Below, one piece after another: positions 2,516-60,953 of a stretch of 64,000 nucleotides of DNA. This stretch comes from Mustelus asterias (taxonomy: Eukaryota). The stretch covers positions 97,340,001 through 97,404,000 of the forward strand of contig NC_135809.1 of assembly GCF_964213995.1 (NCBI RefSeq), written 5' to 3'. Every line of letters starts with the position of its first letter. The first letter of the stretch is position 1. The notes below the pieces were generated by a model. That model worked only from the letters and a program-made list of their open reading frames with translations. It ran no database searches and had not been told where the DNA came from. Position numbers and translations under genes: made by a program.

Positions 2516-2811
2516 TGTGGTGAACCATTGTTGGTTACCACCAGGAGTGCTGAGCCATGGTCTGGCCAGTACTATGAGTCTGTAGATATGTTACTGTTGG
2601 GGTTAGGGTTGGGCTGTTCTACCTGTTAATATAGTCCTATGGTACACCCCAGTTGGCTCCGCCTCCTGGGAGAGGTATAAAGGTCACTGCTCTGCCTGGT
2701 GACCCCTTAGTCTGGGATTGTATATTGTATATAGTAGCTCCGTTATTGTTGGCAATAAAAGCCTTTATTTCCCAGGTACATCCTGCCTCCCGTGTGATTT
2801 ATCGCGCATCA
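2516..2811 (+). repeat. 5' LTR of element 1
   Basis: Direct repeat of 6923-7218; TATAAA at 2676; AATAAA at 2754. Confidence 0.97.
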
Positions 2812-2812
2812 A

Positions 2813-2827
2813 TTTTATTGCCAACAA
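2813..2827 (+). other. Non-tRNA primer-binding position, complementary to own LTR 2746-2760
   Basis: ttttattgccaacaa is the exact reverse complement of ttgttggcaataaaa; there is no TGG (tRNA CCA complement) after the LTR. Confidence 0.8.
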
Positions 2828-2865
2828 GTAAAATTTTTTTTGAAAAAAAACAACAAAAGAAAACC

Positions 2866-5800
2866 ATGGAGCAAATGCTGAAACCCGAACGGCTTACGTT
2901 GGATCCACGTGCGGCGGGAGCATCGAACACTTTCGACCACTGGTTGAAGTGTTTCCAAGATCACCTCGACGCCTCCACAGCGGTCAACAACGACGCCGAC
3001 AGACTCCGGGTCCTCCATGCGAGGGTAAGCGACACTGTATACTTAGCGATCCGTGAGGCCCCAGACTACAAAGGGGCCCTCGAGCTTCTCAAAAAGCGAT
3101 ACAACAAACCACCGAATGAGATCCATGCTCGACATCTTCTAGCCACTCGATGGCGGCAGCCCGGCGAAACGACGGAACAGTACGTGTGTGAACTTCAGCA
3201 GCTAGCCAGAGCCTGCAACTGCAAGCCAGTGTCGGCAGCCCAGTACATGAGCGACTTAGTTCAAGATGCGTTTGTGGCGGGAATCGGCTCGTCGTACATC
3301 CGCCTTCGGTTGCTGGAGCAAGGTAACCTTGACCTCGCTAAAACCATAGAGTTAGCTGACGCTCTAGAAACGGCCTCCAAAAGTCTGGAGATGTACCCCG
3401 ACGACCGCGTGGGGACATTGTGGCAGGTGCAGCCGCAGACTCCACTTTATTCAGCGGGATCGAAAAACTGCGCGATTGCGTTTCCAGCCTCGGACCTGAC
3501 GACGGCAGCAGCTCCAGGTGGCCCGCGGTGTTACTTCTGTGGGGTGGTGAAACACCCTCGGCAGCGATGTCCAGCTAAAGCGGTATTGTGCTCCGCCTGT
3601 GGCAAGAAGGGACATTATTCCAAAGTATGCTGGACCAAACCACTCTCCAAACACAACAGTGCGGCGTGTGACTCCCCGGAGCCGGCCTCCTTGTCTTCTG
3701 CGTCTTCGAGGTCTTCCACCACGTGCGATTCCAGGACGTCGCCATTCCTAACGACGGAGTCGCAAGACACGTGCGACCTGCAGGGGCCGCAGGTTTTGGC
3801 GCCATCGACCACGTGCGACCTATGGGGGCAGCCATTTTGGTCGGCAACGACCGCGAATGACCAGCAGGGGCCGTCATCAGCCATCTCAGCTGCCTGCAGT
3901 TGCGCCCACGATCCAACGGTGGCGTCAATCATCCTGGACCAGGCCAAGCCTCACAGACTCGACAAGTCCATGATGGACATACAGGTAAACGGACGCCAGA
4001 TTTATTGTTTGTTTGACAGCGGGAGCACGGAGAGCTTCATTCACCCTGACACCGTGAAGCAGTGTGGTCTCCAGATTCGGACTGTCAAGCAGACAATTTC
4101 GATGGCGTCAAGGTCCCGGTCTGTCACTGTGCTAGGGAGCTGCGTGGTCAACCTGATGGTGCAGGGGACGGTTTACGAGAACTTCAGGCTCCTTGTGTTA
4201 CCGCACCTTTGCGCGCCGATACTCCTAGGACTAGATTTTATGGTCCACCTGAAGAGTGTAACCCTGCAGTACGATGGGCCATTCCCTCCGCTTTCAGTGG
4301 GAGATCCGCAGCCTCTAAATTGCCCAACGCGCTCCACATGTAGTCTCTCGACGCTCAGGATTACCACACCCTCCCTATTCCAGAATCTGGTACCAGGCTG
4401 CAAGCCCATCGCAACAAAGAGCAGGTGTTACAGCACTGAGGATCGGATCTTCATTCGATCTGAAGTTCAGCGGCTCCTCAAGGAAAGGATCATCCAACCT
4501 AGCGCTAGTCCTTGGAGAGCGCAAGTCGTGGTGGTTAAGAATGGGAACAAACCCCGGATGGTCATAGACTATAGTCAGACCATTAACAGATACACATAGC
4601 TGGATGTGTATCCCCTCCCGCGCATATCTGACATGGTCAATCAGATTGCGCAGTACCGGGTGTTCTCCACCATCGACTTAAAATCTGCTTACCACCAGCT
4701 CCCCATTTGCCCAGAGGACCGACAATACACGGCCTTTGAGGCGGATGGTTGCCTGTACCATTTTTTAAGGGTTCCCTTTGGTGTCACGAATGGGGTCTCG
4801 GTCTTCCAGCGTGCTATGGACCGAATGGTGGACCAGAACGGGCTGCGGGCTACCTTCCCGTACCTGGATAACGTCACCATCTGCGGCCATGACCAGCAGG
4901 ACCACGATGCCAACCTTCTTAGATTCTTACGCACTGCATCTCGCCTGAATCTGACCTACAACAGGGAGAAGTGTGTATTTCGCACGCGCCGCCTAGCTAT
5001 CCTCGGATACGTGGTGGAAAACGGGGCCCTTGGCCCTGATCCAGACCGTATGCGTCCCCTCCTCGAACTCTCCCTGCCCACTAGCATCAAAGCACTGAGA
5101 AGATGTTTAGGCTTCTTCTCATACTATGCACAGTGGGTTCCCAATTACGCGGACAAAGCCCGTCCGCTCATCAAGTCTACCTCCTTTCCCCTAACAACAG
5201 AGGCTCGCTTAGCCTTTGCAGGAATAAAAGCCGACATCGCGAAAGCCACGATGCACGCTATTGATGAGTCCATCCCCTTCCAGGTGGAGAGTGATGCATC
5301 TGATTTCGCCCTGGCCGCCACACTTAACCAGGCGGGCAGGCCCGTCGCCTTTTTCTCTCGCACCCTCCAAGGCCCCGAAATTCGGCATTCTGCGGTGGAA
5401 AAGGAGGCCCAGGCCATTGTGGAGGCAGTTTGGCATTGGAGCCATTACTTGGTGGGAAAACGGTTCACTCTGCTCACGGACCAGCGGTCCATGGCGTTCA
5501 TGTTCAACAACACGTTACGGGGTAAGATCAAGAATGATAAAATCTTGAGGTGGAGAATCGAACTCTCCACCTACAATTATGATATCATGTACCGTCCAGG
5601 GAAGCTCAACGAGCCCTTGGAAGCCCTGTCGCGTGGAACATGCGCTAGTGTGCAGGAGAATCGATTACAGGCTCTCCACAATGACCTCTGCCATCCGGGG
5701 GTCACTTGGCTCTTCCACTTCATAAAGGCCAGGAATCTACCCTACTCGGTGGAGGATGTCAGGTCCATAACCAGAAGCTGCCAGCTATGCGCGGAATGCA

Positions 5801-6859
5801 AACCGCACGTCTACCGACCTGACAGGGCACACCTCATTAAGGCCACTCGTCCTTTCGAAAGACTGAGTGTGGACTTCAAGGGCCCCCTTCCCTCGACAGA
5901 TCGGAACGTGTACTTCCTCAATGTGATTGATGAGTACTCACGATTCCCTTTTGTCATTCCCTGTTCTGATATGACCGCTGCCACGGTTATCAAGGCATTA
6001 CGGGATCTTTTCACCCTGTTCGGTTACCCCTGTTATATCCACAGCGATAGGGGCTCGTCGTTCATGAGCGATGACTTGAGGCAATACCTACTCTCATATG
6101 CGATTGCCTCTAGTAGAACCACGAGCTACAACCCAAAGGATAACGGACAGGTTGAACGAGAGAATGCTAGAATGGAAGGCTGTCTTACTGGCGTTGAGGT
6201 CTAAAGGTCTTCCAGTCTGCCGTTGGTAAGAGGTACTCCCTGATGCACTCCACTCCATACGCTCACTCCTGTGTACGGCAACCAATGCTACTCCTCATGA
6301 GAGAATGTTTTCATTCCCTAGGAAGTCTTCCTCTGGGACCTCATTACCGTCTTGGTTGACGTACTCAGGACCTGTCCTCCTGCGGCGGCATGTTAGGACC
6401 CGCAAGTCCGACCCTTTGGTTGAACAGGTCCATCTCCTCCACGCCAACCCTCAGTATGCCTATGTGGCATATCCTGACGGGCGAGAGGACACGGTCTCGA
6501 TTCGAGGTCTGGCGCCAGCAGGGGGCTTGGAAACCCCAGTCGCTCCCACACCCCCAGTTAGGGACCCCACGACCATTATCTCCCCTCCTGACACGGCGCG
6601 GGCAGTATCGGGACCACCACTTAACCCTCTTACTCCCGTGTGCAGCTTGCCTGAGTCCAGGAGATTGTCGCCACCTCGAGGCGTGCCCGAGTCCAGCGGA
6701 TTGTCACCACCTCGTGGTCTACCGGCCCGTGAGGAACTGGAGGAGTCACTGGACACCGCCTTGGAGAGAAGGTCACCGCGATTGCCTGAACCGGCGTCAT
6801 CGCCGGTGTTGAGGAGGTCACAGCGACGGTGCGGTCCCCCAAACCGTTTGAACTTATAG
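2866..6859 (+). pseudogene. gag-pol polyprotein of element 1 (single ancestral ORF, now disrupted)
   Basis: Starts MEQMLKPERL; two CCHC knuckles (CYFCGVVKHPRQRC, CSACGKKGHYSKVC); protease LFDSGS; RT IDLKSAYHQ, PFG, YLDN; RNase H ESDAS; integrase HHCC plus DFKGP/HSDRG/QVER. Lesions: TAG at 4597, frameshift near 6170, TAA at 6227. Confidence 0.93.
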
Positions 6860-6907
6860 ACAGATGAACAGTTGTTCTGTGTTTTGTACCCCGCCGGCCT
6901 TTGTTTT

Positions 6908-6922
6908 CAAAGGAGGGGTGAA
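6908..6922 (+). other. Polypurine tract of element 1
   Basis: caaaggaggggtgaa lies immediately 5' of the 3' LTR and is identical in element 2 (48971-48985). Confidence 0.85.
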
Positions 6923-7218
6923 TGTGGTGAACCATTGTTGGTTACCACCAGGAGTGCTGAGCCATGGTCTGGCCAGTACTATGAGTCTGTAGATATGTTA
7001 CAGTTGGGGTTAGGGTTGGGCTGTTCTACCTGTTAATATAGTCCTATGGTACACCCCAGTTGGCTCCGCCTCCTGGGAGAGGTATAAAGGTCACTGCTCC
7101 GCCTGGTGACCCCTTAGTCTGGGATTGTATATTGTATATAGTAGCTCCGTTATTGTTGGCAATAAAAGCCTTTATTTCCCGGGTACATCCTGCCTCCCGT
7201 GTGATTTATCACGCATCA
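6923..7218 (+). repeat. 3' LTR of element 1
   Basis: 292/296 identical to the 5' LTR by manual comparison. Confidence 0.97.
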
Positions 7219-7903
7219 TGGAGCAGAGAAGACTGAGGGGCAACCTGATCGAGGTGTACAAGATTATGAGAGAGATGGACAGAGTGGACAAGGAGTAGCT
7301 GTTCCCTTTAGTTGAAGGGTCAGTCTCGAGGGGACATAGGTTCAAGGTGAGGGGCAGGAGGTTTAGGGGGGGATGTGAGGAAAAACTTTTTTACCCAGAG
7401 GGTGGTGACACTCTGCAATGCACTGCCTGGGAAGGTGGTGGAGGCGGGTTGCCTCACATCCTTCAACAAGTATCAGGATGAGCACTTGGCACATCATTAC
7501 ATTCAGGGCTATGGGCCAAGTGCTGGCAGATGGGATTAGGTGGGAGTTCAGGTGTTTCTAATATGTCGGTGAAGACTTGATGGGCCAAAAGGCCTTGTCT
7601 AAAGTTAAAGTTAAAGTTTATTTATTAGTCACAAGTAAGGCTTACATTAACACTGTAGTGAAATTACTGTGAAATTCCTCTAGTCGCTACACACTGGCAC
7701 CTGTTTGGGTCAATGTACGTAACCAGCACGTCTTTCAAACTGTGGGAGGAAACCGGAGCACCCGGAGGAAACCCACGCAGACACGGAGAGAACATGCAAA
7801 CTCCACACAGACAGTGACCCAAGCCGAGAATCGAACCCGGGTCCCTGGCGCTGTGAGGCAGCAGTGCTTACCACTATGCTGTATGATTCTACGATTCTAT
7901 GAT
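7219..7903 (+). mobile_element. CR1 LINE 3' end, right part (tail interrupted by a SINE at 7601-7879)
   Basis: RRLRGNLIEVYKIM and SRGHRFKVRG; the (attctatg)-type terminal repeat appears at 7880-7903, after the SINE. Confidence 0.85.
7601..7879 (-). mobile_element. tRNA SINE, HE1-like head/body with Rex1-like tail (short variant)
   Basis: A/B boxes and gtgggtttcctccgggtgctccggtttcctcccacag core; tail ...cttgtgactaataaataaac(tttaac)n. Confidence 0.85.
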
Positions 7904-9859: not shown

Positions 9860-11420
9860 TTCAGTTCCGAGTTGATGAGCAGGAGCCTGAACTTCGGACA
9901 CTGTGATGCATCTGGGAGGGGTGAAATTACCTGGATACTTTGTTCTAAGAGGCAGTCACACCCCTTTGGCTTGGTACTACAGATCAGTGGCAGGAGGGTG
10001 TGGTCACAAATGAGCCAGGTATGGAGACCCAGAAAGTAGAAATGGATAAAACTGAACTCTTGCAATTGACTAACAGATTTGAGTCTCTTCCAACTTATAT
10101 GGATAAGAACAAGGACTGCAGGGGGATTAAGAAAATTGAACACGACACATGATACAGGGATCCATTCAAGTGGAGGGAGCAATATGAAATGTAGTTGCAG
10201 TATGGAACAATATAATTAGGGAGAATCGATACCATTCTCCACAGCCAGGAGCACGAGTCCCAAAGTCTGCATTGCCTGCTTGGTGCCAGGGGTAAGGACA
10301 TTGCCTCAAGGCTGGAGAGGAACTTGAAGTGGGAAGTGAAAGGTCCAGTTGGTGAGGTCCATGTGGATATCAATGATATAGGTATGACTGAGAAAGAATT
10401 CTATGAAGGGTATATGAGAGCTGGGGGCTAAATTAAAGGTAATAATCTCAAGATTACTTACTACATGAGCAAAGAGCAAATTGTCATGAGGTAGACAAGA
10501 TTAGAGAGCTGAATACATAGCTTAAAGATTGGAGTGGCAGAAATGGGTTTCAATTCATTGGGCAGTGGCAGTATTACTGGGGAAAGAAGGGGATGTACTT
10601 TGGGATGGTCTTCACTTGAACCGTGCTGGGGCAAGTTGTGTAATTAGGGCTGTAGAGAGTGCTTCTAACTAAACAGTTAGGAGATGGGGTTCACATGAAG
10701 GGAGATTTTTGAAAGTTAAAGACATGACAATAGTACAGGGTAGTGATGCGGGTAATGAAAATCAATATATGATAACAAGGGACAGAGCGTACAAACATAA
10801 GAGTGAACAGGCAAATAATTTGAGGGTACGGAGACAGAGTTGGCTAAAGTGGAATGGGAAAATAGGTTTAAAGGGAAGATGATGGAGAAACTGCCAAACA
10901 TTCAAGGAGATCATTAATTACTCTCAGCAAAGATATATTTAATTGGGAAAGAAAGATGCTGAGAAACATAAACCATTCATGGCCAACTAAGGAAAGGAAG
11001 GATGGAATCAAATTGAAATAAAATATAAAGTTTATTTGTTAGTCACATGTAAGGCTTACATTAACACTGCAATTAAGTTACTGTGAAATTCCCCCAGTCG
11101 CCAAACTCCGGCGCCTGTTCGGGTCAATGCACCTAACCAGCACGTCTTTCAAATGGAGGGAGGAAACCGGAGCACCGGAGGAAACCCATGCAGACACGGG
11201 GAGAACATGCAAACTCCACACAGTGACCCAAGTCGGGAATCAAACCCAGATCCATGGCACTGTAGATAGACAATGCTGCGAAGATTAGTGTTAGCCCAGA
11301 AGATTGAGAAAAATTTTAGAAAACAGAAAATTAAGTCAGAAAAATAACAGAGGGAGAAATTGATATCTGAAAGAAAATTAGCAAATATGATAAAACAGAC
11401 AGTAAAAGTATTGCAAAAGA
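9860..11420 (+). mobile_element. Old CR1 5' region (ORF1 SGNH-esterase remnant and ORF2 pieces)
   Basis: CLLGARGKDIASRLERNL..GPV..VHVDINDI and DGLHLNRAG resemble the CR1 ORF1 esterase blocks; heavily decayed. Confidence 0.7.
11026..11264 (-). mobile_element. tRNA SINE with Rex1-like tail (short variant)
   Basis: Same sequence and same internal deletion as 7601-7879. Confidence 0.85.
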
Positions 11421-19081: not shown

Positions 19082-21337
19082 TCATAGAGTCATAGAGTCA
19101 TAGAGGTTTACAGCATGGAAACAGGCCCTTCAGCCCAACTTATCCATGCCGCCCTTTTTTTAAAAAACCCCTAAGCTAATCCCAATTGCCTGCATTTGGC
19201 CCATATCCCTCTATACCCATCGTACCCATGTAACTATCTAAATGCTTTTTAAAAGATAAAATTGTACCTGCCTCTACTACTAACTCTGGCAGCTTGTTCC
19301 AGACACCCACCACCATCTGTGTGAAAAAACTGCCCCTCTGGACACTTTTGTATCTCTCGCCTCTCACCTTAAACTTATGCCCTCTAGTTTTAGACTCCCC
19401 TATCTTTGGGAAAAGATATTGACTATCTACCTTGTCTATGCCCCTCATTATTTTATAGACCTCTATAAGGTTACCCCTCAGACTCCTTTGCTCCAGAGAA
19501 AATAGTCCCAGTCTATTCAGCTTCTCCTTATAACTTAATCCATCAAGTCCCGGTAGCATCCTAGTAAATCTTTTCTGCACTCTTTCTAATATCCTTTCTA
19601 TAATAGGGTGACCAGAATTGCACACAGTATTCCAAGTGTGGACTTACCAATGTTTTGTACAACTTCAACAAGACGTCCCAACTCCTGTATTCAATGTTCT
19701 GACCGATGAAACCAACCATGCCGAATGCCTTCTTCACCACTCTGTCCACCAAGGAGCTATGAACATGTACCCCCAGATCTCTTTGTTCTGTAACTCTCCC
19801 CAACGCCCTACCATTAACTGAGTAAGTCCTGCCCTAGTTCAATCTACCAAAATGCATCACCTCGCATTTGTCTAAATTAAATTCCATCTGTCATTCATCA
19901 GCCCACTGGCCCAATTGATCAAGATCCCGCTGCAATTGGAGATAACTTTCTTCATTGTCCACTATGCCACCAATCCTGGTGTCATCTGCAAACTTACTAA
20001 CCATGCCTTGTATATTCTCATCCAAACCATTAATATAAATGACAAATAACAGTGGGCCCAGCACTGATCCCTGAGGCACACCGCTGGTCAAAGGCCTCCA
20101 GTTTGAAAAACAACTCTCTACAACCACTCTCTGATTCTGTCAAGAAGCCAATTTTGTATCCATTTAGATACCTCACCCTGCATCCCGTGAGATTTAACTT
20201 TATGCAACGACCTACCATGCGGTACCTTGTCAAAGGCCTTGCTAAAGTCCATGTAGACAACATCAACTGCACTGCCCTCATCTACCTTCTTGGTTACCCA
20301 TTCAAAAAACTCAATCAAATTTGTGAGACATGATTTTCCATTCACAAAGCCATGCTGACTGTCCCTAATCAGTCCTTGCATCTCTAAATGCCTGTAGATC
20401 CTGTCTCTCAAAATACCTTCCAACAATTTACCCACCACAGATGTGAGGCTCACTGGCCTGTAGTTCCCAGGCTTTTCCCTGCAGCCCTTTTTAAACAAAG
20501 GCACAACATTTGCCACTCTCCAATCTTCAGGCACCTCACCCGTGACTATCGATGATTCAAATATCTCTGCTTGGGGATCCGCAATTTCCTCCCTAGCCTC
20601 CCACAACGTCCTGGGATATACTTCATCAGGTCCCGGGGATTTATCTACCATGATGCGCTTTAAGACTTCCAGCACCTCCTTCTCTGTAATATGTACACTC
20701 CTCAAGGCATCACTATTTAATTCCCCAAGTTCCCTAACATCCATGCTTTTCTCAACAGTAAATACTGATGAGAAATATTCATTTAGGATTTCACCCATCT
20801 CTTGTGGATCTGCACATAGATGACCTTGTTGATCCTTAAGAGGCCCTACTCTCTCCCTTGTTACTCTTTTGCCCTTTATGTATTTGTAGAAGCTCTTTGG
20901 ATTCTCCTTTGCCTTATCTGCCAAAACAATTTTGTGTCCCCTTTCTGCCCTCCTGATTTCTTTCTTAACTCTACTCCTATGCCACTTATACTCTTCAAGA
21001 GATTCACTTGATCCCAGCTGCTTATGCATGTCATGTGCCTCTTTCTTCTTCTTGCCCATGGCCTCAATATCCCGAGTCATTCAGGGTTCCCGACTTCTGC
21101 CAGCCTTGCTCTTCACTCTGAGAGGAATGTGTTTACCCTGAACCTTGGTTAACAAACTTTTGAAAGCATGCCACTTACCAGACATCCCTTTGCCTTCCCA
21201 CAGACTCCCCCAATTAACTTTTGAAAGTTCCTGCCTGATACCATCAAAATTGGCCTTGCCCCAATTTAGAATTTTAACTTTTGGGACAGACCTATCATTC
21301 TCCATAGCTATTTTAAAACTAATAGAATTATGGTCAC
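19082..21337 (-). mobile_element. Young CR1 LINE, 5'-truncated (ORF2 RT region)
   Basis: 320-aa ORF 20118-21080 with PGNYRPVSLTS, QHGF, YMDFSKAFDKVPH; GVPQGSVLGP and KFADDT; (actctatg)n tail. Confidence 0.95.
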
Positions 21338-33009: not shown

Positions 33010-33325
33010 TCATAGAAGAATCATAGAAGCCCTACAGTGCAGAAGGAGGCCATTTGGCCCATCGAGTCTGCGCTGACAACAATCCCATTCAGGCCCTACT
33101 CCCGTAACCCCACATAACCCCACTAATCCCTCTAACCGATGCATCCCGGGGCACTAAGGGGCAATTTAGCATGGCCAAGCAACCTAACCCGCACATCTTT
33201 GGACTGTGGGAGGAAACCCACGCAGACATGTGGAGAATGTGCAAACTCCTCACAGACAGTGACCCAAGCTGGGAATCGAACCTGGGTCCCTGGCGCTTTG
33301 GGACCACTGTGCCACCGTGCTGCCC
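33010..33325 (-). mobile_element. HE1-like SINE
   Basis: Reverse complement matches 15440-15748. Confidence 0.88.
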
Positions 33326-38316: not shown

Positions 38317-38819
38317 TAGTTTCTGACATTTTGAGACCAGCTAACTCAACATAGATAAGGAATTCCTTTTCCGTATGCCTCAGTTACTCGCGACATAAAC
38401 ACACTAAGCTACTGAGGGAGCCAAAGTGGTATACTATCATTGTGAAGTCATCACCTCACAATTATATGTTTTTCTCGGTTTAAAATTATGACGTTGCAGG
38501 CAGGAAGGATGGGTGGATAAGTTGAATGGAAATAAATAAATTAAGTGGATACATGAAGAACAGCTAATTGCTGTCAGTTTTCTGCAACTGCCAAACATGC
38601 ATCGCAGTCAAATTTACATTCTACTTTTGTTCCATCTTCCTACATGCAACAAAGAATTCATTACTATACTACATTTTGCAGGTACTTGTTTGCAAGCAGA
38701 AATTGTTTTAAAGCTTAAGCTTAGATGCTATTTTTTATTCTTGTATGTCTTTTCTAACTGTCTTTTTTAACTGCAGTATTTTTCTCTCTTCAGTTTTCCT
38801 CTCCGTGGTTTTCTTCTCT

Positions 38820-39132
38820 CATAGTGTAGGAGGAGGCCGTTCGGTTTATTCAGTCTGTACCGATCACAGACCTACCCAAGCCCTATCCCCATAACCTCAT
38901 GCATTTACTTTAGCTAGTCCCCCTGACACTAAGGATCAATTTAGCATGGCCAATCCACCTAACCCGCACATCTTTGGACTGTGGGAGGAAACCAGAGCAC
39001 CCGGAAGAAACCCACGCAGACATGGGGAGAATATGCAAACTTCACACACACATTGACCCAAGCCAGGAATCGAACCCGGGTCCCTGGCGCTGTGAGGCAA
39101 CAATGCTAACCACTGTGCCACAGTTGCCGCCC
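38820..39132 (-). mobile_element. HE1-like SINE
   Basis: Matches the other copies. Confidence 0.85.
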
Positions 39133-40361: not shown

Positions 40362-40697
40362 TTAGAATCCCTACAGCACAGAAAGAGGCCATTCGGCCCA
40401 TCGAGTCTGCACCGACCACAATCCCACCCAGGGCCTACCCCCATATCCCTACATATTTACCCACTAATCCCTCTAACCTACGCATCCCAGGACACTTAGG
40501 GCAATTTTAGCATGGCCAATCAACCTAACCTACACATCTTTGGACTGTGGGAGGAAACCGGAGCACCCGGAGGAAACCCACGCAGACACAAGGAGAATGT
40601 GCAAACTCCACACAGGCAGTGACCCAAGCCAGGAATCGAACCCAGGTCCCTGGAGCTGTGAAGCAGCAGTGCTAACCACTGTGCTACCGTGCCACCC
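40362..40697 (-). mobile_element. HE1-like SINE
   Basis: Matches the other copies. Confidence 0.88.
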
Positions 40698-44560: not shown

Positions 44561-44580
44561 AATGTTTGATGCTTCCTTAT

Positions 44581-44896
44581 TGTGGTGAACCATCGTTGGT
44601 TCCCACTGGATAGTGCTGAGCCAGGAGCTGGCCAGTACTACAAGGATGTACATATGTTACTGTTGGGTTGTGCTATTGTTGCTGTTGGGGTTAGGGTGGG
44701 GTTGTTACACCTTTGTACTGTAGTGTTGTGGCACATCCCAGTCGGGCTCCGCCTCCTGGGAGAGGTATAAGAGTCCCTGCTCTGGCCGGGACCCCTTCAG
44801 TCTGGGATAGTGTATATAAGTTCTGGCAGCTTCATTACAGTAAATAAAAGCCTTTCATTTACTGAGCTTCAGGCCTCGTGTTTGAGTAGCGCATCA
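44581..44896 (+). repeat. 5' LTR of element 2
   Basis: Direct repeat of 48986-49301; TATAA at 44766, TCAGT at 44797, AATAAA at 44843. Confidence 0.97.
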
Positions 44897-44897
44897 A

Positions 44898-44910
44898 TTT
44901 TATTTACTGT
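44898..44910 (+). other. Non-tRNA primer-binding position, complementary to own LTR 44837-44849
   Basis: ttttatttactgt is the exact reverse complement of acagtaaataaaa. Confidence 0.8.
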
Positions 44911-44949: not shown

Positions 44950-47900
44950 ATGGAGCAAATTCTGAAGCCGGAACGCCTTACGCTAGATCCACGTGCGGTG
45001 GGCGCTTCTAACACCTTCGACCACTGGCTGAAGTGTTTCGAAGACTACCTGGCAGCCTCCGCAGCGGTCACCACAGATGATGACAGACTCCGGGTCCTCC
45101 ATGCGAGGGTAAGCGACACTGTCTACCTCGCGATCTGTGCGGCCACTGATTATACTAAGGCCCTCGAGCTTCTGAAGAAGTGCTACATCAAACCATCCAA
45201 TGAGATACACGCTCGTTACCTCCTAGCCACTCGACAACGGCAGTCTGGCGAAACGATGGAGGAGCAGTCTGGCGAAACGATGGAGGAATATGCGAACGAG
45301 CTCCTACAGCTAGCCAGGGGCTGTAACTGCAAAGCTGTGTCGGCTGAGCAGAGCATGAACGACCTCGCCCGAGATATGTTTGTGGCCGGGGTCGGATCGT
45401 CGTACATTCGACTTAAACTGTTGGAGAAGGGTAACCTTAACCTTACCCAGGTCATTGAGCTAGCAGAGATGCTCGAGACGGCCTCCAAAAGCTTAGTATT
45501 ATATCCGGAGGACCATGTGGAGACAACATGGCAGGAGCAGTCGCCAATCCCTCCTCATCCCTCGGGTTCGAAATGCTGCGTAATGGTGTGCTCACACTCG
45601 GGCCAGATGACGGCAGCAGCCCCGGGTGGCCCGCGGTGCTACTTCTGTGGGGGAGCGAAGCATACTCGGCAATGCTGTCCCGCTAAAGCTGTGTTGTGCA
45701 CCGCATGCGGTAAAAAAGGGCACTATCAAAAGTGTGCCGATCTAAACCCAGGAACGGCAGTGCGGCCTGCGATTCATCAGAGCTCGGGTCCTCGTCGTCG
45801 AAGTCATCGCGGGGTTCGTCCACGTGCGAGGCCAGGACGATGCCATTACGGTCGACGGAGTCGGAGGGGTATGACCACCAGGGGTCGCTGAGTTTGGCGC
45901 CCTCACCCACGTGCGACTCATGGGAGCAGCCATGTTGGTCGACACTGACCACGAACGACCAGCAGGGGTCCTCCTCATCGATTTCAGCTGCCTGCAGTGG
46001 CGCTCATGAACCAACGGTGGCGTCGATCATCCTGGACCAGGCCAAGCCTCATAGACTTGACAAATCTATGATGAATATCCAGGTAAATGACCACGTGATT
46101 TATTGTCTGTTTGACAGTGGGAGAACTGAGAGCTTTATCCACCCAGACACTGTGAAGCGGTGTGGACTCCAGATTCAACCTGCCAAACAGACAATCTCTA
46201 TGGCATCAAGGTCCCGGTCTGTTGCCGTGCTAAGGAGTTGCGTGGTAACCTTGAAGGTGCAAGGCACAGTTTACGAGCGTTTCAAGCTCCTCGTGTTGCC
46301 GTATCTTTGCGCGCCAATACTTCTCGGACTAAACTTCATGGTCCACTTGAGGAGTGTAATCCGACAGTACGGTGGGCCACTCCCTTCACTGGCAGTGGGA
46401 AAACAGCAGCAGCCTCCAAATTGCCCCGCCTGCAGCCTCTCGACGCTGAAGATCACCACACCCTCCTTGTTCCAGAATCTTGTGCCAGGCTGCAAGCCCA
46501 TCGCGACTAAAAGTAGGCGTTACAGCGCTGAGGATCGGATCTTCATTAGATCTGAGGTTCAGCGGCTCCTCAAAGAAAGGATCATACAACCCAGCGCTAG
46601 TCCGTGGAGGGCGCAGGTCGTGGTGGTCAAGAGCGGGAACAAACCCCGGATGGTCATTGACTACAGTCAGACCATTAACCGATATACGCAGCTGGATGCG
46701 TATCCCCTCCCACGCATATCTGATATGGTCAATCAGATTGCGCAGTACCGGGTGTTCTCCACCATAGACCTCAAGTCTGCCTACCACCAACTCCCCATTC
46801 GCCCAGAGGACCGACAATACACGGCTTTTGAGGCGGATGGTCGCTTGTATCACTTTCTCAGTGTTCCCTTTGGTGTCACCAATGGGGTCTCAGTCTTCCA
46901 GCGTGCTATGGACCGAATGGTGGACCAGAACGGGCTGCGGGCTACCTTCCCGTACCTGGATAATGTCACCATCTGCGGCCATGACCAGCAGGACCACGAC
47001 ACGAATCTCCTGAACTTCCTACGCACTGCATCTCGCCTGAACTTGACCTACAACAGGGAGAAGTGTGTGTTTCGTACGCGCCGTTTAGCCATCCTAGGAT
47101 ACGTGGTGGAAAACGGGGTCATTGGCCCTGATCCAGACCGTATGCACCCCCTTTCTGAACTTCCCTTACCTGCTAGTGCAAAAGCACTGAGAAGATGCTT
47201 AGGCTTCTTCTCTTATTATGCGCAGTGGGTTCCCAACTACGCGGACAAAGCCCATCCGCTCATTAAGTCCACGACTTTTCCCTTAACGCCAGAGGCCTGA
47301 TTGGCCTTCGATAAATTGAAAGCCGACATCGCAAAAGCTACGATGCACGCTGTAGACGAGTCCATCCCCTTTCAGGTGGAGAGCGATGCATCTGATTTCG
47401 CCCTGGCCGCCACGCTTAACCAGGCGGGCAGGCCCGTCGCATTTTTTTCCCGCACCCTCCAAGGCCCCGAAATTCGGCATTCAGCGGTGGAAAAGGAGGC
47501 CCAGGCCATTGTGGAGGCCGTCAGGCACTGGCGCCATTACTTGGCGGGAAAACGGTTCACCCTGATCACGGACCAGCGGTCCGTGGCGTTCATGTTTAAC
47601 AACACGCAGAGGGGCAAGATCAAGAATGACAAGATCTTGCGGTGGAGAATTGAACTCTCCACCTATAACTACAACATCATGTACCGTCCAGGGAAACTCA
47701 ATGAACCCTCGGATGCCCTCTCGCGTGGAACATGCGCTAGTATACAGGAGGACCATTTGCAGGCCCTCCATAATGACCTATGCCATCCTGGGGTCACTCG
47801 GCTCTACCACTTTATAAAAGCTCGCAACCTGCCTTACTCGGTGGAGGACGTCAGGTCAGTAACAAGGAGCTGTCGGGTTTGCGCGGAATGCAAACCGCAC

Positions 47901-48922
47901 TTTTACCGACCTGACCGGGCACATTTAGTCAAGGCCACTCGTCCCTTCGAGAGACTGAGTGTCGATTTTAAGGGCCCCCTTCCCTCAACAGATCGGAATG
48001 TGTACTTCCTCAATATTATTGACGAGTACTCTCGGTTCCCTTTTGTTGTTCCCTGCTCTGATACATCCGCTGCCATGGTTATCAAGGCATTCCGTGATCT
48101 CTTTACCCTGTTCGGGTACCCTGGCTACATCCATAGCGACAGAGGCTCGTCGTTCATGAGCGATGACTTGAGGCAATTCCTGCCCTCATACGGGATTGCC
48201 TCTAGTAGGACCACGAGCTACAACCCTAGGGGTAACGGACAGGTGGAATGCTACTGTCTGGAAGGCTGTCTTACTGGCGTTGAAGTCAAAAGGTCTTCCA
48301 GTCTCCCGTTGGCAAGAGGTGCTCCCTGATGCGCTCCATTCTATTCGCTCCCTCCTGTGTACGGCAACCAATGCTACTCCCCACGAGAGGATGTTCTCAT
48401 TCCGTCGGAAGTCTTCCTCGGGGACCTCATTACCAGCTTGGTTGGCGTACTCAGGACCCGTCTTCCTGTGGCGACATGTAAGGGCCCGCAAGTCCGACCC
48501 GTTGGTTGAACAGGTCCATCTCCTCCACGCCAACCCTCAGTATGCCTATGTGGCATACCCTGACGGGCGAGAGGACACGGTCTCGATCCGAGACCTGGCG
48601 CCAGCAGGGGACGTAGCAACCCCTGTCGCTCCCATACCCCCTGTTACAAACCCTTTATCTCTTGTTTCTTCCCCGGACACGGCGCGGGCAGCATCGGGAC
48701 CATTGCTTAACCATTTTACTCCCATGTACAGCTTGCCTGCAGGGCGTGTCAGGATCCCATGGACTTGCGTCACCTCAGGGTCAACCGGCCTGTGAGTCCG
48801 TGGAAGAACAGCTGGACGCCACCTTGGGGAGAATGCCACTGCAAGTGCCTACTCCGGTGTCACCGCCGGTATTGAGGAGGTCACAACGACGGTGCGGTCC
48901 CCCTGACCGTCTGAACTTATAG
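44950..48922 (+). pseudogene. gag-pol polyprotein of element 2 (disrupted)
   Basis: Colinear with element 1. Lesions: 24-bp in-frame duplication 45241-45288, frameshift near 45730, TGA at 47298, small deletion near 48247, deletion near 48740. Confidence 0.93.
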
Positions 48923-48985
48923 ACTGCTGACACTTTATTCTGTTTTTTGTACCCCGCCGGCCTTTGTTCTCAAAGGAGGGGTGAA

Positions 48986-49301
48986 TGTGGTGAACCATCG
49001 TTGGTTCCCACTGGATAGTGCTGAGCCAGGAGCTGGCCAGTACTACAAGGATGTACATATGTTACTGTTGGGTTGTGCTATTGTTGCTGTTGGGGTTAGG
49101 GTGGGGTTGTTACACCTTTGTACTGTAGTGTTGTGGCACATCCCAGTCGGGCTCCGCCTCCTGGGAGAGGTATAAGAGTCTCTGCTCTGGCCGGGACCCC
49201 TTCAGTCTGGGATAGTGTATATAAGTTCTGGCAGCTTCATTACAGTAAATAAAAGCCTTTCATTTACTGAGCTTCAGGCCTCGTGTTTGAGTAGCGCATC
49301 A
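48986..49301 (+). repeat. 3' LTR of element 2
   Basis: 315/316 identical to the 5' LTR by manual comparison. Confidence 0.97.
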
Positions 49302-49464
49302 CTTATAAAATGGATTAAATGTTCGCTGAGCAGTAGGAAACAGAATATATTTGTGAATGGGAAGTATTCTGGGGTTGAAAGGAAGATGAGTGGATTGTCA
49401 CAGTGTTCAGTACGCCAACATTATCAGAAATGATCGAAAATGAGGGTTGATATAATAGCAGATG

Positions 49465-50619
49465 TCATAGAGTCATAGAGTGATAGAGGTTTACAGCATG
49501 GAAACAGGCCCTTCGACCCAACCTGTCCATGCCGCCTTTTTTTAAAAATCCCTAAGCTAATCCCAATTGCCCGCATTTGGCCCATATCCCTCTATTCCCA
49601 TCTTACCATGTTACTGTCTAAATGCTATTTAGAAGACAAAATTGAACCCACCGCTATTACTATCTCTGGCAGCTTGTTCCAGACACTCACCACCCTCTGT
49701 GTGAAATAATTGCCCCTCTGGACACTTTTGTATCTCTCCCCTCTCACCTTAAACCTATGCCTTCTGGTTTTAGACTCCCCTACTTTGGGAAAAGATATTG
49801 ACTATCTATCTGATCTGTTCCCCTCATTATTTTATAGACCTCTATAAGGTCATCCCTCAGCCTTCTACACTCCAGAGAAAAAAGTCCCAGTCTATCCAGC
49901 CTCTCCTTATAATGCAAACCATCAAGTCCTGGTAGCATCCTAGTAAATCTTTTCTGCACTCTTTCTAGTTTAATAATATCCTTTCTATAATAGGGTGACC
50001 AGAACTGTACACAGTATCCCAAGTGTGGCCTTACCAATGTCTTGTACACTTCAACAAGACGTCCCAACTTCTGTATTCAATGTTCTGACCAATGAAACCA
50101 AGCATGCTGAATGCCTTCTTCACCACTCTGTCCACCTGTGACTCCACTTTCAAGGAGCTATGAACATGTACCCCGAGATCTCTGTTCTGGAACTCTCCCC
50201 AATGCCCTACCATTAACTGAGTAAGTCCTGCCCTGGTTCAATCTACCAAAATGTATCACCTTGCATTTATCTAAATTAAACTCCATCTGCCATTCGTCAG
50301 CCCACTGACCCAATTGATCAAAATCCCGTTGCAATCGGAGATAACTTTCTTCACTGTCCACTATGTCACCAATCTTGGTGTCATCTGCAAATTTACTAAC
50401 CATGCCTCCTATATTCTCATCCAAATCATTAATATAAATGACAAATAACAGTGGGCCCAGCACTGATCCCTGAGACACACCACTGGTCATAGGCCTCTAG
50501 TTTGAAAAACAACTCTCTACAACCACACTCTGGCTTCTGTCAAGAAGCCAATTTTGTATCCATTTAGATACCTCACCCTGGATCCCGTGAGATTTAACCT
50601 TATGCAACAACCTACCATG
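49465..50619 (-). mobile_element. Young CR1 LINE 3' part (same family as 19082-21337)
   Basis: GVSQGSVLGP, KFADDTK, LVRPHLGYCVQFWSP; (actctatg)n tail. Confidence 0.95.
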
Positions 50620-60681: not shown

Positions 60682-60953
60682 CATAGAACCCCTACAGTGC
60701 AGAAAGTGGCCATTTGGCCCATCAAGTCTGCACCGACTCTTTGAGAGTATCTTACCCAGGCTCTCTCCCCTGCCCTATCTCCATAACCCTATGTATTTAC
60801 CCCGCTAATTCCCCTAATCTACATGTCTTGGGACACTAAGGGGTGATTTATCATGGCCAATCCTGCACATCTTTGGACTGTGGGATGAAACCAGAGCACC
60901 TGGAGGAAACCCATGCAGATACGAGGAGAACATGCAAACTCCACACAGACAGA
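60682..60953 (-). mobile_element. HE1-like SINE, 5'-truncated
   Basis: Core plus CR1-type tail. Confidence 0.82.

What the first reader, a model, noticed from the sequence alone, without database searches (positions are those of the whole stretch)
44837..44910. Compensatory co-variation of the LTR/PBS duplex in the sister subfamily
Seen: element 2 differs in sequence at both sites (acagtaAATAAAA at 44837-44849; ttttatttactgt at 44898-44910) yet still forms a perfect 13-bp duplex. It has the same 1-nt A spacer, the same endpoint at the last A of AATAAAA, and an almost identical LTR-to-ATG distance (53 vs 54 nt, A-rich). Inference: preserved pairing despite changed sequence indicates that structure, not a fixed tRNA, defines this site. 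It could also arise mechanically if the self-primer is copied into the PBS each cycle.
Basis: partly seen in the sequence, partly recalled or inferred. Interest (0 to 1): 0.8.

Follow-up and report, generated by a model that had tools for sequence, protein, structure and literature searches.

The report
Self-priming Gypsy retrotransposons leave replication fossils
A jumping gene with thousands of copies in this shark-like genome has, where a host tRNA would normally dock, a sequence that pairs with its own end-repeat and changes in step with it across subfamilies, so it likely starts copying itself with a cut-off piece of its own RNA, and small fold-back inserts in the genome appear to record where that cut falls.

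Summary
Confirmed. In a young Ty3/Gypsy element (LTRs 44581-44896 and 48986-49301) the primer-binding site (PBS, 44898-44910) is the exact complement of LTR bases 44837-44849, which end in the poly(A) signal. The genome holds 8,667 such LTR-PBS-gag junctions. In 97 consecutive copies the six variable positions pair 97% (49% when permuted), as 18 mirrored variants; 41 of 49 possible changes on a tree coincide. Distant relatives show the same duplex (39 of 48 loci). No fixed tRNA fits, so Tf1-like self-priming is likely. Covariation does not prove selection: copying of the primer could cause it. The 53/54-nt leader match is coincidence (range 23-67). Added here: two kinds of integrated by-products with 5-bp target duplications. 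Palindromic mini-elements (70 of 90 examined) join an LTR to its inverted U3-R through the PBS. Solo LTRs with a fold-back insert resume at AATAAA|AGCC in 20 of 30 events, the predicted cut. A conserved TATA/initiator suggests transcription starts about 50 nt upstream, unlike Tf1; no chromodomain. No RNA data. The scan noted this self-priming clade before in other genomes.

The parts
44576..44580 (+). 5-bp target-site duplication CTTAT, left copy (right copy 49302-49306)
44581..44896 (+). 5' LTR of element 2, 316 bp, TG...CA, one difference from the 3' LTR
44745..44773 (+). GC box (44745-44753) and conserved TATA box (from 44766); TATA lies 79-88 nt upstream of the last A of AATAAAA in 95 of 98 copies
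44798..44804 (+). Initiator-like CAGTCTG; A44799 is the predicted transcription start, 33 nt after TATA (predicted, no RNA data)
44837..44849 (+). LTR arm, the predicted self-primer 3' part; includes the poly(A) hexamer AATAAA at 44843-44848
44848..44850 (+). Predicted cut between primer and template, at or within 3 nt of AATAAA|AGCC
   Evidence: junctions of fold-back inserts elsewhere in the genome
44850..44896 (+). Rest of R and U5, starting GCC; a helix tends to begin right after the arm
44897..44897 (+). Single-A spacer; one base in all 39 duplex-bearing relatives
44898..44910 (+). PBS position: TTTTATTTACTGT, no TGG, complement of the arm
44950..48922 (+). gag-PR-RT-RNaseH-IN region, broken into several frames by frameshifts and a stop; no chromodomain found
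48972..48985 (+). Polypurine tract AAAGGAGGGG plus TGAA before the 3' LTR
48986..49301 (+). 3' LTR of element 2
2516..7218 (+). Element 1, sister subfamily: LTRs 2516-2811 and 6923-7218 (4 differences), target duplication TGGAG, arm 2746-2760, spacer 2812, PBS 2813-2827, ATG 2866; coding region interrupted by stops

Best explanation
This is the primer site of a chromodomain-less Ty3/Gypsy clade whose PBS is the complement of a 13-15 nt stretch of its own LTR ending in the poly(A) signal, and the element likely primes reverse transcription with that stretch after the RNA is cut just 3' of AAUAAA. Shown: complementarity, coupled change across subfamilies and distant relatives, no TGG, and integrated fold-back by-products whose junctions use the arm-PBS pairing. 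Inferred steps: (1) transcription probably starts at the initiator about 50 nt upstream of the arm end, so the primer would be the 3' end of a roughly 50-nt 5' piece, not the first 11 nt as in Tf1 (about 65%); (2) the arm pairs with the PBS, which would also hide the 5' poly(A) signal; (3) the RNA is cut at or within 3 nt of AAUAAA|AGCC, by the element's RNase H by analogy with Tf1 (untested), which would leave the usual two extra bases beyond CA; (4) minus strong-stop DNA covers only U5 back to the cut and jumps to the 3' R; (5) plus strong-stop DNA copies the primer, so it is self-complementary and sometimes folds back or dimerises, giving the palindromic mini-elements; (6) the same copying likely rewrites the PBS after an LTR change, producing much of the covariation (about 60%, against selection alone).
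For: 97 true junctions among 100 consecutive hits: positions 8-13 pair 97.4% against 49.3% permuted (maximum 57.2% in 2,000), 83 of 97 perfect, 18 variants; 41 of 49 possible co-changes on a 113-copy gag tree against 10-31% for slid partners. Independent count on 38 sequences: 96.3% paired against 79.1%, covariation 0.46 against at most 0.15 slid. Relatives at about 43-64% amino-acid identity to the P0007 query (best segment): 39 of 48 loci, 21 PBS variants, always a 1-A spacer, arm followed by GCC or ACC in 19 of 21. Fold-back inserts: 20 of 30 independent events resume at the arm's 3' edge, none at the predicted start; 19 of 30 loci fetched are solo LTRs with a 5-bp duplication (13 perfect, 6 with one mismatch); the insert starts with the complement of the spacer A (26 matches with T against 3 non-LTR chance matches with A, C or G). 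Palindromes: 70 of 90 loci, 61 with a perfect 5-bp duplication. Precedent: Tf1 cut between bases 11 and 12 by RNase H (PMC7175516, passage); about half of Tf1 cDNA keeps a single-stranded PBS copy at its 3' end (PMC11042837, passage); dead-end plus strong-stop DNA in Ty3 (PMC5371799, section 2.2).
Against: No RNA, no start site, no cut and no cDNA was observed (one search listed no RNA holder). About 14 of the 20 boundary junctions sit at the foot of a hairpin of 4 bp or more (read from the listing), so hairpin-driven template switching could place them there without a fixed end; only about 6 have 3 bp or less. Palindromes can arise from any switch across the 15-bp inverted repeat during reverse transcription. 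The Tf1 'pretzel' flanking stems were not found. In Ty1 and Ty3 the PBS is not inherited from the primer (PMC5371799, section 2.2), and subfamilies with 13-bp duplexes keep mismatches at positions 14-15, both against routine rewriting. The excess of arm differences at positions 16-45 in palindromes (1.9-fold against 1.07-fold in normal LTR pairs, P 0.03-0.04) is weak, post hoc, driven by three columns and without a consistent direction. Relatives were scored after being selected for having a duplex, which inflates their 97.6%.
Confidence: 0.82

Rival explanations
1. The duplex exists only to hide the 5' poly(A) signal and stop premature polyadenylation; priming uses something else.
For: The arm always contains AATAAA in this genome; the predicted start lies about 50 nt upstream, so the signal is transcribed in the 5' LTR; the PBS exists only after the 5' LTR.
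Against: It leaves no primer: the partner sits exactly at the PBS position with a fixed 1-nt spacer. In 8 of 21 relatives the arm ends in neither AATAAA nor ATTAAA, and L123 and L139 carry a separate AATAAA inside the loop. It does not explain inserts that begin with the spacer complement. It may still be a side benefit.
Confidence: 0.06
2. The primer is the 3' end of the genomic RNA (the arm of the 3' R, trimmed after AAUAAA), closing the RNA into a loop, and the 5' R is not cut.
For: Both LTRs carry the arm; 5 of 90 loci continue from the PBS through inverted U3 into the PPT and internal sequence.
Against: Strong-stop DNA would then end at the start site; fold-back junctions cluster at the arm's 3' edge and none of 5 upstream events is at about -50. 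Normal 3' processing cuts 10-30 nt after AAUAAA (established knowledge).
Confidence: 0.07
3. A host tRNA, tRNA half or other small RNA primes, and the LTR match is incidental or comes from gene conversion.
For: No host tRNA set was tested; half-tRNA priming exists in copia elements (PMC6317226, passage).
Against: No TGG; 32 PBS variants at positions 8-15 in 97 copies, tracking each copy's own LTR; conserved geometry across distant relatives; no Rfam family above threshold.
Confidence: 0.03
4. Self-priming exactly as in Tf1: transcription starts at the first base of the arm. (A variant of the best explanation, not exclusive of it.)
For: Pairing stops sharply after position 15 (62 of 97 copies); a YCA-like motif lies 2-3 nt upstream of the arm in many subfamilies; one rearranged copy has a junction at the arm's 5' edge (L420).
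Against: 0 of 98 copies have a TATA at the distance that fits a start at the arm, whereas 95 of 98 have one that fits a start at about -50, with 32-33 nt spacing to the initiator in 93 of 94.
Confidence: 0.3

Closest known systems
Tf1/Tf2 (Schizosaccharomyces pombe), Tj1, Tosmo and the Tf1/sushi group of chromoviruses
   Same: Ty3/Gypsy domain order; PBS complementary to the element's own 5' LTR; no tRNA site; predicted cut that frees the primer (PMC7175516, PMC4600332, bioRxiv 2022.12.06.519325; passages).
   Different: No chromodomain found; primer ends at the poly(A) hexamer; 13-15 bp instead of 11; probably not at the RNA 5' end; pretzel flanking stems not supported; a helix directly after the arm instead.
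Predicted self-primed plant lineages Tcn1 (Gypsy) and TAR (Copia)
   Same: Self-primer inferred from LTR-PBS complementarity of 10 bp or more within 0-5 bp of the LTR (PMC6317226, passages).
   Different: Other lineages and hosts; Tcn1 belongs with the chromoviruses.
Ty3 (Saccharomyces cerevisiae)
   Same: Nearest solved RT (E 7e-40); first plus strong-stop DNA copies part of the primer and accumulates as a dead end (PMC5371799, section 2.2).
   Different: tRNA-primed; its dead-end product is not self-complementary; PBS not inherited from the primer.
Animal non-chromovirus Gypsy clades (Mag, CsRn1, MolGy groups)
   Same: Compact single gag-pol frame, short LTRs, marine-animal range; LTR start TGTGGTG fits the CsRN1 5' motif TGTGGYG (PMC3601003, Table 3 passage).
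   Different: LTR 3' end does not fit the CsRN1 motif; clade name could not be established (no reference sequences; searches found none). That these clades use tRNA primers is recalled, not tested.

Membership tests
Ty3/Gypsy LTR retrotransposon | TG...CA LTRs, 4-6 bp target duplication, PPT | tested here: met
   72 of 74 full-length copies with a detected duplication have 5 bp
Ty3/Gypsy LTR retrotransposon | Order PR-RT-RNaseH-IN | tested here: met
Tf1/sushi group | PBS complementary to own 5' LTR, no tRNA site | tested here: met
Tf1/sushi group | Chromodomain at the integrase C-terminus | tested here: not met
   no Pfam chromodomain in 7 window frames, 5 full-length relatives (E up to 0.05) or the precomputed domains of 120 homologues
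Tf1/sushi group | Primer is the extreme 5' end of the RNA | tested here: inconclusive
   promoter geometry points to a start about 36 nt upstream of the arm; no RNA data
Tf1/sushi group | Three-duplex pretzel with U5-leader and U5-end stems | tested here: not met
   U5-leader pairs 1.1 against 3.6 shuffled (own genome, 62 variants) and 3.2 against 3.4 (25 relatives); U5-end stem marginal or absent (folding model only)
Tf1/sushi group | RT-IN tree placement among chromoviruses | not tested
Tf1/sushi group | RNase H cut releases the primer | not testable with these tools
   indirect only: 20 of 30 fold-back junctions at the arm's 3' edge
tRNA-primed Gypsy elements | PBS starting TGG, complementary to a tRNA 3' end | tested here: not met
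   PBS starts TTT in all junctions examined; relatives were found by protein, not by PBS pattern
CsRn1 clade | LTR ends TGTGGYG ... MSYYAMA | tested here: inconclusive
   5' end fits, 3' end CGCATCA does not (PMC3601003 passage)

The most novel reading that the evidence does not exclude
A widespread animal Gypsy clade, separate from Tf1/sushi, makes its primer by cutting a capped 5' RNA piece of about 50 nt exactly at the end of the poly(A) hexamer, so one helix both primes and hides the 5' poly(A) signal; and its self-complementary strong-stop DNAs are integrated as an undescribed class of palindromic mini-elements with two U3 ends, leaving a genomic fossil record that maps the priming reaction without an experiment.
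Probability: 0.45. Interest if true: 0.8.

Novelty: new variant of a known kind. Interest (0 to 1): 0.64.

Why it matters
Self-priming has been demonstrated in fission-yeast Tf1 and predicted for a few other lineages. A chromodomain-less clade with thousands of young copies in a vertebrate genome suggests it is more common in animals or arose more than once. The genome is a natural experiment: many subfamilies, fast coupled change of primer and PBS, and integrated by-products that point to the cut site. It makes two open questions testable: whether a self-primer must be the RNA's 5' end, and whether a PBS is inherited from its primer. Pipelines that require a tRNA match will report 'no PBS' for the whole clade.

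Tried and rejected
No RNA holder listed, so the start site could not be mapped. Laying contigs of four runs on one palindrome was uninformative: pieces too short to span it. IMG/VR gave no relatives. A two-parent breakpoint scan of 221 copies found 17 recombinant-like copies and no cluster near the arm or the predicted start; inconclusive. Assigning palindrome arm differences to templates gave no consistent direction. Pretzel stems not supported. Conserved leader length rejected. The TATATA at about -35 was rejected as the main TATA: present in 41 of 98 copies. Clade name not found: a recalled label gave 0 papers; supplements of two clade surveys held no matching protein motif, and some files could not be searched. 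Three primary Tf1 papers were not held.

Full report
OBSERVATION. The window holds two related LTR elements. Element 2 has LTRs at 44581-44896 and 48986-49301 (one difference) and the duplication CTTAT; element 1 has LTRs at 2516-2811 and 6923-7218 (four differences) and the duplication TGGAG. Both encode PR-RT-RNaseH-IN in Gypsy order, in broken frames. Bases 44837-44849 are the exact complement of 44898-44910, after CA and one A; element 1 has 15 such pairs. Five of the six variable pairs differ on both sides.

HOST AND FAMILY. The genome has 3.68 Gb; the closest named proteins are from sharks and rays, then cnidarians, a sea cucumber, a tunicate and a nematode, so 'shark-like' is an inference. 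It holds 8,667 LTR-PBS-gag junctions (control 0). LTR pairs are 96-100% identical, median 98.5% (74 copies).

COVARIATION. One search gave 6,759 matches (control 0). All of the first 100 listed were fetched; the pattern fixed the first seven pairs and excluded C at PBS positions 8, 9 and 20. Three were rearranged copies and were dropped. In 97 copies, positions 8-13 pair 97.4% against 49.3% when PBS sequences are permuted among copies; 83 of 97 are perfect, in 18 variants; the contiguous duplex is 15 bp in 62 and 13 bp in 18. On a gag tree of 113 copies (these plus 16 of 18 chosen for rarer variants), 41 of 49 possible changes coincide; slid partners give 10-31%. An independent count on 38 sequences chosen by LTR-arm variant alone gave 96.3% paired against 79.1% shuffled, and covariation 0.46 against at most 0.15 slid. 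Among 89 related loci from metagenome and MAG contigs, 48 reach the start of gag; 39 of these show the duplex, with 21 different PBS sequences, always a single A spacer, arm ends of the form NNTAAA or close to it, and GCC or ACC next in 19 of 21. Of the 9 misses, two show an 11-13 bp duplex, three have little upstream sequence and four lack a clear LTR junction. Many loci come from one assembly and their hosts are unknown. A helix tends to start right after the arm (pairing probability 0.67 against 0.26 shuffled in 21 relatives; 0.59 against 0.39 in 41 own variants).

SELECTION OR COPYING. Paired columns change as often as their unpaired neighbours (51 changes in 6 columns, 45 in 5), and several columns hold three or four Watson-Crick pair types, which needs swaps that cannot pass through G-U. 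That favours copying of the primer into the PBS. About half of Tf1 cDNA carries a single-stranded PBS copy (PMC11042837, passages seen). Against: in Ty1 and Ty3 the PBS is not inherited from the primer (PMC5371799, section 2.2 read), and some subfamilies, element 2's among them, keep mismatches at positions 14-15. I put copying at about 60%. Either way the PBS is coupled to the LTR, not to a tRNA.

WHERE THE RNA STARTS. A TATA lies 79-88 nt upstream of the last A of AATAAAA in 95 of 98 copies, an initiator-like YAGTY at 48-55 nt in 96 of 98, spaced 32-33 nt in 93 of 94; no copy has a TATA fitting a start at the arm. The predicted start is A44799, 38 nt before the arm. In Tf1 and its relatives the primer is the RNA's 5' end (PMC7175516, PMC4600332, bioRxiv 2022.12.06.519325; passages seen). 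No RNA run was available.

BY-PRODUCT 1: PALINDROMES. Two of the 100 copies were an LTR followed by A and the inverted U3-R. A genome pattern found 150 matches (control 0). Of the first 90 listed, 70 are clean palindromes, 5 run on into the PPT and 15 are other rearrangements; 61 of 70 have a perfect 5-bp duplication and 5 have one mismatch. They were therefore most likely inserted as units with two U3 ends, which shows the arm-PBS pairing being used during reverse transcription. The simplest source is plus strong-stop DNA ending in a primer copy, a dead-end product known from Ty3 (PMC5371799), which here is self-complementary. Arm differences are 1.9-fold enriched at positions 16-45 (1.07-fold in 74 normal LTR pairs; P 0.03-0.04), as a 50-nt primer would predict, but the window was chosen after looking, three columns carry 21 of the 55 differences, and direction is inconsistent.

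BY-PRODUCT 2: FOLD-BACK INSERTS. Some LTRs read AATAAAA, T, an inverted piece of the U5 end, then forward LTR again. A search with no constraint on the resumption point gave 35 matches. I dropped 3 chance matches, 2 ordinary junctions read backwards and 2 duplicates, leaving 28, which reaches about 110 nt upstream, added 2. Of 30 events, 20 resume within 3 nt of AATAAAA|GCC, 5 inside U5 and 5 upstream (about 8, 10, 14, 25 and 70 nt), none at about 50 (four of the 20 were read from the listing only, and four that mis-anchored were read). Of the 30 loci fetched, 19 are solo LTRs with a 5-bp duplication. The T that complements the spacer is required: 26 matches with T, 3 non-LTR matches with another base. 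This is what a minus strong-stop DNA ending at the arm's 3' edge would give if it folded back, copied its own start and ran into an arm-sequence primer. All 16 fetched boundary events keep at least one A before GCC, which suggests a cut after AAUAAA and two extra bases beyond CA. Caveat: about 14 of 20 junctions lie at the foot of a hairpin of 4 bp or more, so template switching at a hairpin could explain them without a fixed end.

COMPARISON. It works like Tf1 but is not filed as Tf1/sushi: no chromodomain, no pretzel stems in folding tests, probably an internal primer; no tree with named clades was possible. Ten searches of the held library (listings) showed self-priming for Tf1/sushi, Tcn1 and TAR and as a proposal for Skipper (PMC6317226, PMC5006619, passages), and no description of this clade's priming or of such integrated by-products. 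Passages of PMC3601003, PMC6934838, PMC8220671 and bioRxiv 2023.10.26.564294 added nothing on it. Subscription papers (Butler 2001, Levin 1995-1998) and Repbase reports were not seen; I recall that Repbase notes may mention self-primed animal Gypsy families, unverified. Unsearched supplement files of PMC6238403 and PMC8556966 could bear on the clade name. The scan reported the same kind of duplex in other genomes; look-ups for the palindromes, for this genome and for this protein returned nothing.

VERDICT. Real, strongly supported feature; self-priming likely (0.82); new variant of a known mechanism; interest 0.64, chiefly for the scale of the covariation and the by-products that point to the cut site.

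Noticed in passing
G000 genome-wide, e.g. L358 (C1:15,075,915), L334, L359-L447: Palindromic mini-elements of about 550-610 bp: full LTR, A, then inverted U3-R from the last A of AATAAAA to the LTR start, with 5-bp duplications; 150 pattern hits, 70 of 90 examined are clean palindromes.
   Followed up: yes
L463-L498, e.g. L467, L472, L475: Solo LTRs with T plus an inverted U5 end inserted right after AATAAAA; none of the 35 matches pair up at element length, so they may have been integrated as short DNAs.
   Followed up: yes
L448-L452 (L369, L381, L387, L404, L405): LTR and PBS followed by inverted U3, PPT and internal sequence: larger inversions through the same junction.
   Followed up: partly
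L201-L209: Contigs filed under bacterial MAGs in the genome collection carry LTR retrotransposons of this clade, which points to eukaryotic host DNA in those assemblies.
   Followed up: no
window 2754-2769: AATAAAAGCCTTTATT can form a local hairpin over the poly(A) signal in element 1 and several subfamilies, an alternative to PBS pairing that also exists in the 3' LTR.
   Followed up: no
window about 45243-45290: In-frame 24-nt tandem duplication in gag of element 2 (repeated QSGETMEE).
   Followed up: no
L317 and L324; L319 and L321; L404 and L405; L483 and L484: Pairs of insertions 0.1-0.7 Mb apart with shared variants and mostly shared flanks, probably segmental duplications; counted once in the fold-back tally, not removed from the 97-copy set.
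   Followed up: partly
L248, L260, L261, L290, L298, L343: 5' LTR, 3' LTR and PBS carry alleles of different subfamilies, suggesting recombination or conversion between subfamilies.
   Followed up: partly
window 7600-7890, 11016-11230, 33024-33312, 38811-39124, 40363-40690, 60684-60952; 19226-20071, 49606-50470: Other dispersed repeat families (SINE-like and LINE-like by appearance), not examined.
   Followed up: no
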